Shown here in pieces: positions 8,229-9,407 of a DNA stretch of 64,000 bases. Position 1 is the stretch's first letter, and the number at the start of each line of letters is the position of its first letter. The notes beneath the pieces are model-generated. The model ran no database searches. It was not told the origin of the DNA and saw only the letters and a list, made by a program, of their open reading frames with translations. The DNA comes from Escherichia coli (GTDB lineage Bacteria > Pseudomonadota > Gammaproteobacteria > Enterobacterales > Enterobacteriaceae): the NCBI RefSeq assembly GCF_041248615.1, contig NZ_CP158426.1, one strand, 5' to 3'. The position numbers and the translations under genes were made by a program.

Positions 8229-8700
8229 ATCAGCTCCTTTGCACGGAAATAATGCCACAGTCACAACAAACCCGAACCCACTATAATTTATTTATGCTAA
8301 ATCAATGGGTTGTAACAAAATTTTTAATGAATATAAAACCATGGTCAGTCCATGCTTATATGCAGGACTTATCACCTTCTTATTAAGTCGCAATGTCTCA
8401 TGGAGGTGCGAAGATGCTGCAATATTACAGGCGAGAAGGGGAACCAAATTTTGCCCACCTATTTAACACACCCCTACATTATGAACAAGGAATTTAGGAT
8501 TTTTATCATTTATTAAAATGTTTCCTACTTGACTATTAAACCAAAAAACAATTTATCAATTGATTATTTCCTTGTAAAAAAAGAACGTATGACCATGTTA
8601 TTAATAAATAAAACACGTAAATAATGGTGATGTTGTTTTGTGATTAACTATTTAAGAGTGGCATAATAAACAAGTTGACAATTTCTATGTAAAGAAGAAG
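8229..8700 (-). promoter_or_regulatory. kps region 1 promoter / long AT-rich leader (approximate)
   Basis: About 1.2 kb of AT-rich sequence upstream of kpsF without convincing ORFs; region 1 is known to be driven from a promoter a few hundred bp upstream of kpsF. Exact -10/-35 not resolved. Confidence 0.35.
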
Positions 8701-9026
8701 AAAATAATAAAATTTTAGCGGTGACTATTGAATGATATGATAGTTGTGGTGTTGATTATTTCTGGTAATGAATGCGGAATTAAATCTGGCCGGATTGTAT
8801 TTTTGCTATATCTATTTTTCAGGAGATTATTATTAAATATAAAAATAACAATGGTGATTATCTCCGGTTGACCTGGAGTCACGTATGCCAGCGAGTGCTT
8901 TCTTCCGGGCCTTCCTTCACTTCAGAGAAAAAGAGGCAATCATCAGGCTCTTTTTGAGTCATATGCGCCGATAATCAACTGTCTTGAACGTAAAAATTAT
9001 GGAGCAACATGATGCTACGATTCATT

Positions 9027-9248
9027 TCACTCTTCGTTCTTTCTGAGCATTGCGTTCAGGATGGTCAGCAATTTACGCATACTGTCAACCAGCGCCACTT
9101 TTTTGGTTTTTCCGGCTGCTGACAGATGCATGTAAAATGCCTTTATCACCGGATTAAACCAGGTTACCACAAGCGCTGCCATGTGCAGGGCTGCTCTTGC
9201 CTCCGTACGCGCACTGGCGTCGTTCGGCCAGCAGATATGTGTGGGATA
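9027..9248 (-). pseudogene. IS110-family transposase, C-terminal fragment only
   Basis: Minus-strand translation ...ASARTEARAALHMAALVVTWFNPVIKAFYMHLSAAGKTKKVALVDSMRKLLTILNAMLRKNEE* matches the conserved C-terminus of IS110-family transposases; no upstream catalytic part present. Confidence 0.5.
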
Positions 9249-9372
9249 ACAGGGATGTTATGTGAACTGAACTGTGTTTTGTTAGCGGGGGGATGTTTAT
9301 TGATGATTCGGGAGTGTTTAAGACCTGATGGCGTTATGCTCCCAAGTTTATTTTATATAAAGATCCAAAAGC

Positions 9373-9400
9373 AAAAACCCGCCTTGTGGGCGGGTTCTTT
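9373..9400. terminator. bidirectional rho-independent terminator-like hairpin
   Basis: AAAAA-CCCGCC-TTGTG-GGCGGG-TTCTTT: 6-bp GC stem flanked by A-run and T-run; lies downstream of the minus-strand gene ending at 9540. Confidence 0.55.
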
Positions 9401-9407
9401 AGAATAG

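What the first reader, a model, noticed from the sequence alone, without database searches (positions are those of the whole stretch)
8229..9407. Long AT-rich kps region 1 leader adjoining an IS110-family transposase remnant
About 1.2 kb separates kpsF from the island repeat. It contains only AT-rich sequence and an IS110-family C-terminal fragment (9027-9248), suggesting past IS activity at the capsule locus boundary and possibly affecting region 1 promoter context.
Basis: partly seen in the sequence, partly recalled or inferred. Interest (0 to 1): 0.3.

Follow-up and report, generated by a model that had tools for sequence, protein, structure and literature searches.

The report
Known kps promoter region, old IS110 scar
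The 1.2 kb upstream of the capsule gene kpsF is the well-studied, AT-rich PR1 promoter region followed by a dead 240-bp end of an IS110-family insertion sequence that sits at the same place in about 95% of E. coli group 2 capsule loci, so it is an ordinary, already annotated feature.

Summary
Exactly 1179 bp (8229-9407) lie between the kpsF start codon (8228, minus strand) and a 22-nt truncated copy of tRNA-Phe (9408-9429).

The interval has six parts:
- the PR1-1 promoter with the published H-NS/SlyA footprint region (GC 26%, the most AT-rich DNA in the 64-kb window);
- about 300 bp of further AT-rich DNA with no assigned function;
- a 240-bp 3' end of a 1174-bp IS110-family element (8976-9215), covering residues 251-312 of a 322-aa transposase, with no catalytic domain and no 5' non-coding end;
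- a 145-bp spacer found only at kps loci;
- the native pheV/yghD terminator, as in K-12.

kpsF occurs in 1707 of 5426 complete E. coli genomes. About 1613 genomes carry the IS-scar segment (≥80% covered, 95-99% identical), including K1, K5 and ST131 loci and divergent kpsF alleles. The scar is an ancient fixed fossil about 520-760 bp upstream of PR1-1, not strain-specific IS activity. Low interest; already known.

The parts
7245..8228 (-). kpsF (arabinose-5-phosphate isomerase), first gene of kps region 1. kpsE, D, U, C and S follow at 6025-7173, 4325-6004, 3575-4315, 1551-3578 and 308-1516.
   Evidence: ORF list. Pfam SIS E 1.7e-33 and CBS E 2.2e-19. PGAP names it KpsF/GutQ in the identical strain D8 locus.
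8229..8452 (-). Region 1 5' UTR (224 nt) running from the PR1-1 start (A at 8452). It contains internal promoters PR1-2 (start 8321, -10 TATATT at 8335-8330) and PR1-3 (start about 8272, putative -10 TATAGT at 8285-8280). It is also the reported RyhB target region.
   Evidence: The published strings GTGTTAAATAGGTGGGCA(+1) and TGGTTTTATATTCATTAAAAA(+1) from Jia 2017 Table S2 are found in the minus-strand read. The spacing between the two starts is 132, as published. The ATG falls at +225, as in the literature. RyhB: PMC11988350. Only 2 of 226 alignment columns over 8229-8454 vary among 5 diverse loci.
8303..8315 (-). IHF binding site TTACAACCCATTG (published as centred near +140). It represses PR1-2 and PR1-3 on entry to stationary phase.
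   Evidence: Exact match to the sequence mutated in UTI89IHF (PMC5738388), read. Binding itself was shown in that paper, not here.
8453..8676 (-). PR1-1 core promoter (-10 TTAAAT at 8466-8461) and the AT-rich upstream platform that carries H-NS/SlyA footprints II (8531-8573) and I (8586-8676). H-NS site III is at 8421-8452.
   Evidence: Footprint coordinates -224..-134, -121..-79 and +1..+32 from PMC8960920, mapped onto +1 = 8452. GC is 0.263, the lowest in the window. One near-consensus H-NS motif, TTGATAAATT, lies at 8550-8559 (the window-wide count is not above chance).
8677..8975 (.). Distal AT-rich DNA (GC 0.355) with no assigned function, specific to kps loci. It lies inside the -646 'entire PR1' reporter fragment. 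This window has a private 12-bp deletion between 8928 and 8929.
   Evidence: Found in 1694 genomes, median one place per genome (highest 2; the listed rows lie at the kps locus). The deletion is seen against 4 other loci. pJJ1 spans -646 to +227.
8976..9215 (-). Dead 3' end of an IS110-family insertion sequence. It comprises about 21 bp of terminal non-coding DNA plus the codons for residues 251-312 of a 322-aa transposase, with an in-frame stop at 9027-9029 that is 10 codons early. The DEDD catalytic domain, most of Transposase_20 and the 180-bp 5' non-coding end are missing.
   Evidence: PGAP pseudogene at 9027-9209.
9216..9360 (.). 145-bp spacer of unknown origin (GC 0.43), found only next to the IS scar at kps loci. 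Its right edge (9360/9361) is the junction with DNA shared with K-12.
   Evidence: A distant blastn search finds it in 1631 genomes, median one place per genome (highest 2), all at 95% identity or more. Homology with K-12 begins at 9361.
9361..9407 (-). Native pheV-proximal sequence with the bidirectional rho-independent terminator (stem-loop 9373-9399). In K-12 this lies between yghD and pheV. Here it stands between the pheV island and the kps upstream region.
   Evidence: 45 bp are 97.8% identical to K-12 MG1655, directly next to tRNA-Phe. Terminator scan. The RNA fold is -22.2 kcal/mol, z = -3.2, with 0 of 200 shuffles as stable.
9408..9429 (-). pheV': a 22-nt degenerate copy of the tRNA-Phe 3' end. 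It is the distal attachment-site repeat of the roughly 34-kb island, whose integrase (42292-43554) adjoins the intact tRNA-Phe (43752-43827).
   Evidence: Alignment A2, ARAGORN and the integrase domains. A 22-bp truncated pheV' ahead of the capsule cluster is described in PMC7387560.

Best explanation
The interval is a composite of known pieces, read here from kpsF outward.

(1) A 224-nt 5' UTR carries two internal promoters and an IHF site.

(2) PR1-1 is preceded by extremely AT-rich DNA on which H-NS binds, silencing capsule export genes at 20 °C. SlyA remodels this H-NS complex at 37 °C. These roles were shown in the cited papers for the same sequence and were not tested here.

(3) A further 300 bp of AT-rich DNA has no assigned role.

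(4) A 240-bp fossil of an IS110-family element keeps its genuine 3' terminus, abutting the kps-side DNA. It has lost about 80% of its length, including the catalytic domain and the 5' non-coding end. It can neither move nor encode a recombinase.

(5) A 145-bp spacer follows.

(6) The ancestral pheV terminator and the 22-nt pheV' repeat come last.

Inferred history: the kps DNA came to lie between the pheV terminator and yghD. An IS110-type element sat at that edge and was truncated by a deletion before the extant group 2 loci diversified. P4-integrase islands later integrated into pheV, leaving pheV' next to the terminator.

The scar is most likely functionally inert. The retained terminator probably stops read-through from the island's DUF4942 gene toward PR1; this last point is inference.
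For: - Exact matches to published PR1-1 and PR1-2 start-site strings, the IHF site and EMSA primers.
- Footprint coordinates coincide with the GC minimum of the window.
- IS homology is limited to positions 5-227 of an 1174-bp element whose ends were defined by comparing two copies in different contexts.
- The intact relative has DEDD_Tnp_IS110 and Transposase_20 domains and matches NF033542 above cut-off. The fragment covers only residues 251-312.
- Genome counts: kpsF in 1707, the scar segment in 1613, the spacer in 1631, and the whole 1179 bp colinear in 1496.
- The architecture is the same in S88, ATCC 8739, Nissle, ST131, FDAARGOS_1077 and CMZE120 although the adjoining island genes differ.
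- K-12 homology starts at 9361 and abuts tRNA-Phe.
- Terminator fold has z = -3.2.
- The integrase lies next to the intact tRNA-Phe.
Against: - No experiment here shows that the scar is inert.
- Jia et al. found PR1-1 much weaker on the chromosome than on a plasmid carrying -646 to +227. They raised the possibility of cis-acting sequences beyond -646, which falls at window ~9098, inside the scar.
- The order of events (IS insertion, truncation, kps capture) cannot be reconstructed, because no locus lacking the scar but otherwise intact was found.
- The terminator's insulating role is untested.
- Published numbering is inconsistent by 2 nt: +1 is 8452 from Table S2 and 8454 from the primer coordinates.
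Confidence: 0.88

Rival explanations
1. The IS110 scar, the spacer and the terminator together form a cis-acting context element that modulates PR1. They could extend an H-NS filament or act as a topological or read-through barrier. This would explain why PR1-1 is weaker on the chromosome than on plasmids.
For: Jia et al. explicitly leave open cis-acting sequences beyond -646. That limit maps to ~9098, inside the scar. The block is retained in about 95% of loci. The terminator is strong.
Against: The scar is not AT-rich (GC 0.467), so it is a poor H-NS substrate. It lies more than 290 bp beyond the outermost footprint. Retention is equally well explained by linkage within a young, recombining locus. 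The scar shows ordinary variability (2.5% variable columns, against 0.9% in the UTR).
Confidence: 0.08
2. The fragment records recent, lineage-specific IS activity that changed the promoter context in this particular strain.
For: Other strains do show fresh IS events in this interval: ISEc10, IS600, IS1 and IS5. This window has a private 12-bp deletion at 8928/8929.
Against: The IS110 fragment has the same ends in every locus inspected, including divergent kpsF alleles. The segment that contains it is ≥80% covered in about 1613 genomes, against 1707 with kpsF. The closest intact copies are only 85-88.5% identical, so the event is old.
Confidence: 0.02
3. The 51-60-codon open frame at 9027-9209 (minus strand) is a domesticated mini-protein, or the fragment yields a functional RNA.
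For: The frame is open from 9209 to 9027 and is conserved across loci.
Against: It corresponds only to the C-terminal helices of the transposase, with a premature stop relative to intact copies. No promoter-like site stands upstream of it. No Rfam match was found. PGAP calls it a pseudogene. There is no excess conservation.
Confidence: 0.02

Closest known systems
PR1 regulatory region of E. coli group 2 capsule (kps) clusters, characterised in K5 and in K1 strain UTI89 (Simpson 1996; Rowe 2000; Corbett 2007; Jia 2017, PMC5738388; review PMC8960920)
   Same: The PR1-2 start-site string, the IHF site sequence and the EMSA primer sites match exactly; the PR1-1 string matches except for variable bases near its 5' end. 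The ATG is at +225. The AT-rich block lies where the H-NS/SlyA footprints were mapped. Identity to the K1, K5 and ST131 loci is 96.5-97.6%.
   Different: This lineage (100% identical to dog isolate D8) has a few private SNPs in the H-NS I/II region and a 12-bp deletion at about -477. No functional difference is known.
Transposase pseudogene between the pheV-island toxin-antitoxin genes and kps region 1 (c3684 in CFT073, mentioned in PMC12488582; 'IS110 family transposase, incomplete' in RefSeq PGAP annotation)
   Same: It has the same position relative to kpsF, with the pseudo-CDS starting about 800-811 bp upstream of kpsF. PGAP gives the same call in D8, S88, Nissle, ST131 and others.
   Different: I could not open the CFT073 record to confirm that c3684 is this exact fragment. 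The paper suggests a role in capsule-gene recombination, for which I found no evidence.
Intact IS110-family elements of Enterobacteriaceae: the 1174-bp, 322-aa transposase copies in the E. coli strain 410 chromosome and on Klebsiella/E. coli plasmids such as pLVPK and pK2044
   Same: 85-88.5% DNA identity over the last ~220 bp, 74% amino-acid identity over residues 251-312, and a shared 3' terminus CAACTGTCTTGAA.
   Different: The window copy lacks 947 of the 1174 bp, including the DEDD domain and the 180-bp 5' non-coding end. In IS110-group elements that end encodes the guide (bridge) RNA; this is my own knowledge, and the NCBIfam name says 'RNA-guided'.
pheV-associated pathogenicity islands bounded by a 22-bp truncated pheV' (PAI V of strain 536; K15 strains, PMC7387560)
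   Same: The intact tRNA-Phe and a P4-type integrase are at one end and a 22-nt pheV' at the other. cbtA/cbeA and DUF4942 genes lie at the distal end, and the capsule cluster lies beyond pheV'.
   Different: Here the native pheV terminator sits between pheV' and the kps DNA. The kps cluster therefore lies outside the repeat-bounded element, although it is often described as part of the PAI.

Membership tests
IS110-family insertion sequence (functional element) | N-terminal DEDD (RuvC-like) catalytic domain (Pfam PF01548) | tested here: not met
   The intact relative has it at residues 12-155. The window fragment aligns only to residues 251-312. No other part of the 1174-bp element matches anywhere in the 64-kb window.
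IS110-family insertion sequence (functional element) | C-terminal Transposase_20 domain (PF02371) / NCBIfam NF033542 above cut-off | tested here: not met
   Only the last third of the domain is present. Pfam gives E 0.017 and 15.9 bits against a 21.3 cut-off. NF033542 gives 33.5 bits against a 140 cut-off. Homology is nevertheless certain (BLASTP E 9e-28).
IS110-family insertion sequence (functional element) | Both element termini and the 5' non-coding end upstream of the transposase gene | tested here: not met
   The 3' terminus is present at ~8976. The 180-bp 5' end defined is absent. Rfam has no model that detects a guide RNA even in the intact copies, so the RNA itself could not be scored.
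kps PR1 promoter region (group 2 capsule, region 1) | Published PR1-1 and PR1-2 start sites and -10 hexamers, with kpsF ATG 225 bp downstream | tested here: met
   The Table S2 strings are found at 8452 and 8321 on the minus strand. The ATG A at 8228 is +225.
kps PR1 promoter region (group 2 capsule, region 1) | IHF site TTACAACCCATTG in the UTR | tested here: met
   Exact match at 8315-8303.
kps PR1 promoter region (group 2 capsule, region 1) | H-NS/SlyA binding upstream of PR1-1 and thermoregulation | not testable with these tools
   Only the sequence correlate could be checked. The footprint coordinates coincide with the GC minimum (0.235-0.263) of the window.
tRNA-gene-associated genomic island (pheV island) | Intact tRNA plus an adjacent tyrosine integrase at one end, and a partial direct repeat of the tRNA 3' end at the other | tested here: met
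   tRNA-Phe is at 43752-43827. The integrase at 42292-43554 has Arm-DNA-bind_3, Phage_int_M and Phage_integrase domains. The 22-nt repeat at 9408-9429 has one gap and one mismatch.
Rho-independent terminator | GC-rich hairpin followed by a U tract | tested here: met
   A stem of 11 pairs (6 G-C) followed by a T run, on the minus strand at 9399-9373. Fold z = -3.2. The sequence is shared with the K-12 pheV/yghD spacer. Termination activity was not tested.

The most novel reading that the evidence does not exclude
The conserved block distal to -520 (IS110 scar, 145-bp spacer and retained pheV terminator) is not inert. It would be the missing 'cis-acting sequence beyond -646' that keeps PR1-1 partly repressed in its chromosomal context, for example as a transcriptional or topological barrier between the pheV island and the capsule promoter.
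Probability: 0.07. Interest if true: 0.35.

Novelty: already known. Interest (0 to 1): 0.08.

Why it matters
It matters little beyond bookkeeping. The analysis gives base-level coordinates in this window for the published PR1 elements. It also shows that the 'transposase' routinely annotated upstream of kpsF is a fixed, immobile 20% remnant that predates the diversification of group 2 capsule loci.

Two practical points follow. The standard '-646' PR1 reporter fragment ends inside this scar, so any search for additional upstream cis-elements should treat 9098-9407 as the untested part. The kps cluster lies outside the pheV/pheV' repeats, separated from them by the native pheV terminator, so it is not part of the integrase-mobilised unit.

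Tried and rejected
- An Rfam scan of 7900-9800 at E ≤ 1 gave only two sub-threshold matches, both explained by the terminator hairpin.
- An Rfam scan of two intact IS copies found nothing, so presence or absence of a guide RNA could not be scored that way.
- The promoter-consensus scan was not above chance: 7 sites found against 5.3 ± 2.5 expected.
- The H-NS high-affinity motif count in the window was not above chance: 6 against 4.2.
- An apparent hairpin at the site of the 12-bp deletion is not significant in this window or in S88 (z = -0.04 and -0.76).
- Two exact-pattern scans of one-genome-per-species contigs found nothing. One used the IS/AT-rich junction and one the IHF-site region. I therefore have no evidence on the locus outside E. 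coli.
- A distant search found no other home for the 145-bp spacer or for the distal AT-rich DNA.
- Small ORFs in the AT-rich DNA (for example 8715-8882) have no Pfam match.
- The 93-aa ORF at 9126-9407 has only a sub-threshold DUF6485 hit.
- Cieslewicz & Vimr 1996 (PMC178073) is not held.
- Literature searches for kpsF+IS110 and for pheV+kps+IS110 found nothing relevant.

Full report
**What is there**

kps region 1 runs on the minus strand. kpsS, C, U, D and E occupy 308-7173 and kpsF occupies 7245-8228. kpsF has SIS and CBS domains. The next gene is a DUF4942 gene at 9540-10382, followed by cbtA/cbeA-type genes.

ARAGORN finds a single tRNA in the window, tRNA-Phe at 43752-43827 on the minus strand. 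A P4-type tyrosine integrase lies beside it at 42292-43554. The core genes yqgA and speC lie beyond it.

Aligning 9300-9480 with K-12 and with the window's own tRNA shows two things. First, 9408-9429 is a 22-nt degenerate copy of the tRNA-Phe 3' end. Second, 9361-9405 is the sequence that lies directly next to pheV in K-12, between pheV and yghD. The gap from kpsF to that repeat is exactly 1179 bp.

**Composition**

The gap is not uniform.

| Segment | Coordinates | GC |
|---|---|---|
| AT-rich block | 8229-8900 | 0.321 |
| PR1-1 upstream, through H-NS I | 8453-8676 | 0.263 |
| IS scar | 8976-9215 | 0.467 |
| Spacer | 9216-9360 | 0.434 |
| Whole window | 1-64000 | 0.50 |

Only 0.08% of 670-bp windows are as AT-rich as the 8229-8900 block. 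The lowest 200-bp value in all 64 kb (0.235) is at 8501-8700.

**The promoter region**

Published sequence strings anchor the PR1 elements directly.

- Jia et al. 2017 (PMC5738388, Table S2) give PR1-1 as ...GTGTTAAATAGGTGGGCA(+1) and PR1-2 as TGGTTTTATATTCATTAAAAA(+1).
- On the minus strand these end at 8452 and 8321. They are 132 nt apart, as published, and the kpsF ATG falls at +225, as in the literature.
- PR1-3 (+181) falls at about 8272, behind a TATAGT.
- The IHF site TTACAACCCATTG is at 8315-8303.
- The primer-based numbers in the main text (+46, +224, +227) would place +1 at 8454, so there is a 2-nt inconsistency in the source.
- With +1 = 8452, the H-NS/SlyA footprints I, II and III map to 8586-8676, 8531-8573 and 8421-8452. 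This is exactly the GC minimum.
- RyhB has been reported to act on the kpsF UTR (PMC11988350).

So only 224 nt is a leader. The rest of the AT-rich DNA is the thermoregulatory platform upstream of PR1-1, plus about 300 bp (8677-8975) with no assigned function.

**The IS fragment**

Megablast of the gap against 5426 complete E. coli genomes gave many partial hits. These covered window ~8971-9203 at 83-87% identity to annotated IS110-family transposase genes.

I fetched two intact copies in unrelated contexts, one from the strain 410 chromosome and one from a 304-kb plasmid. Aligning them shows homology from TCAGCAACTGTCTTGAA to CAAGATACAAGGA. This defines a 1174-bp element with three parts:
- 25 bp of non-coding DNA at the 3' end;
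- a 969-bp gene;
- a 180-bp non-coding 5' end.

The 322-aa protein has DEDD_Tnp_IS110 (residues 12-155) and Transposase_20 (196-278). It scores above cut-off for NF033542, 'IS110 family RNA-guided transposase'.

Only positions 5-227 of that element match the window, at 8976-9198, and nothing else in the 64 kb matches. At the protein level the fragment aligns to residues 251-312 with 74% identity (E 9e-28), which extends the homology to 9215. Compared with intact copies it has a stop 10 codons early, at 9027-9029.

The element's true 3' terminus is therefore preserved against the kps-side DNA, while about 80% of the element is gone. That missing part includes the catalytic domain and the 5' end that in this family encodes the guide RNA (my knowledge; not testable with Rfam). 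It is a dead scar.

**The rest of the gap**

The segment 9216-9360 matches nothing except the same position in kps loci: 1631 genomes, median one place per genome (highest 2). Its origin is unknown.

From 9361 the sequence is the K-12 pheV-proximal spacer. It includes a strong bidirectional terminator with stem-loop at 9373-9399. The RNA fold is -22.2 kcal/mol, z = -3.2.

The junction between kps-associated DNA and ancestral backbone is thus 9360/9361. The kps cluster lies outside the pheV/pheV' repeats.

**Population test**

The counts in 5426 complete genomes are below.

| Query | Genomes |
|---|---|
| kpsF (any match) | 1707 |
| 8960-9360, ≥80% covered (mostly 95-99% identical) | 1613 |
| Spacer 9200-9365 (any match) | 1631 |
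| Distal AT-rich DNA 8680-8975 (any match) | 1694 |
| Whole 1179 bp colinear, ≥80% covered | 1496 |

A five-way alignment of this window with S88 (K1), ATCC 8739, Nissle 1917 (K5) and an ST131 isolate is 96.5-98.6% identical across distinct loci (Nissle and ST131 are identical to each other). The IS ends are the same throughout, although the island genes beyond pheV' differ: EAL-domain, AbiEii or DUF4942 genes. Two loci with the most divergent kpsF alleles listed (98.3-98.6%) also have the pseudogene at the same distance.

The exceptions I opened are secondary events:
- an ISEc10 insertion at ~8783;
- an IS600 insertion at ~9317;
- an IS1-mediated deletion that removed region 1 and the scar;
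- a plasmid-borne kps cut by IS5 at ~8851.

The scar is therefore ancient and fixed, and the refutation criterion is essentially met. Within the alignment the UTR is the most conserved part (0.9% variable columns). The H-NS platform and distal AT-rich DNA are the most variable (6.7-7.5%). The scar is unremarkable at 2.5%.

**Mechanism**

The best-supported reading (confidence 0.88) is that the functional content of the interval is the published PR1 system.
- H-NS binds the AT-rich platform and silences PR1-1 at low temperature.
- SlyA remodels the complex at 37 °C.
- IHF at +140 shuts PR1-2 and PR1-3 on entry to stationary phase.

These roles are shown in the cited papers for this same sequence and are inferred here by sequence identity. 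The IS110 scar and spacer are passive residues of how the kps DNA came to lie beside pheV. The retained terminator plausibly blocks read-through from the island; this is inference.

One loose end keeps a small door open. Jia et al. saw PR1-1 much weaker on the chromosome than on a plasmid carrying -646 to +227. They mention possible cis-acting sequences beyond -646. That limit maps to ~9098, inside the scar, so 9098-9407 has never been tested.

**Comparison with what is known**

- The PR1 elements are textbook for group 2 capsules.
- PGAP already labels the fragment 'IS110 family transposase, incomplete, missing N-terminus' in all eight RefSeq genomes opened with the scar intact, and lists an IS110 transposase under most of the matches in the search tables.
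- A 2025 paper notes a transposase (c3684) between the toxin-antitoxin genes and region 1 in CFT073, and IS21-type insertions there in K100 strains (PMC12488582).
- The 22-bp pheV' ahead of the capsule cluster is described for K15 strains (PMC7387560).

Nothing here is new in kind.

**Verdict**

Novelty: already known. Interest: 0.08.

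Noticed in passing
window 8928/8929: This window, like the 100% identical dog isolate D8, lacks 12 bp (AAGAGCCTATGG) that are present in S88, ATCC 8739, Nissle and ST131. The site is flanked by short AAGAG repeats, which suggests slippage. It lies at about -477 from PR1-1, and no significant hairpin is affected.
   Followed up: partly
L012 657-2908; L013 3643-4799; L011 2249-2946; L015 5680-6648: Other strains carry fresh IS events inside the same kpsF-pheV' interval. ISEc10 (IS21 family) is inserted at about window 8783 and IS600 at about 9317. An IS1-associated deletion removed region 1, PR1 and the IS110 scar. IS5 truncates the upstream region at about 8851 on an IncF/IncHI-type plasmid that carries kps region 1.
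   Followed up: partly
L014 (NZ_LR890315.1, 'plasmid 4' of Klebsiella oxytoca MSB1_10D): A 29-kb circular record labelled as a K. oxytoca plasmid carries E. coli-type kpsFEDUCS and kpsMT. It also has the same 1.18-kb interval (97.1% identity) and the cbeA/DUF957 island end. It may be contamination, a misassembly or an excised circle.
   Followed up: no
L009 2001-2089 (strain 98191): An unannotated 89-bp solo fragment is 94.4% identical to window 8972-9060, closer than any intact IS copy found (85-88.5%). It sits in a phage-like region, between a hypothetical gene and AlpA- and PerC-family regulator genes.
   Followed up: no
window 9408-43827: A complete pheV island of about 34 kb is present. 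tRNA-Phe and a P4-type integrase are at one end. DUF4942, DUF957, cbtA/cbeA, DUF987 and JAB/RadC-type genes are at the other end, next to the 22-nt pheV'.
   Followed up: partly
window 9408-9429 vs L004, L005, L006, L007: The pheV' repeat comes in at least two variants that track the type of adjoining island. The window, S88 and ATCC 8739 have TGGTG-CCGGA(A/C)TCGGAATCGAA, next to DUF4942 or EAL genes. Nissle and ST131 have TGGTGCCCGGAATCGGAATGAAA, next to AbiEii. This suggests independent island integrations beside the same kps flank.
   Followed up: no
window 8229-9407 vs 7245-8228: kpsF is at least 99% identical to this window in 1613 genomes. The adjoining intergenic DNA is only 95-99% identical in most genomes, and 8680-8975 only 90-95%, partly because of the 12-bp deletion. 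The variation is concentrated in the H-NS platform, while the 5' UTR is nearly invariant.
   Followed up: partly
window 151-400: A second strongly AT-rich patch (GC 0.265-0.28) lies just downstream of kpsS, at the region 1/region 2 boundary.
   Followed up: no
PMC5738388, main text vs Table S2: The paper's coordinates are inconsistent by 2 nt. The primers said to span +46 to +224 and the clone end at +227 imply +1 = window 8454. The start-site strings in Table S2 and the '225 bp upstream' statement imply +1 = 8452.
   Followed up: yes
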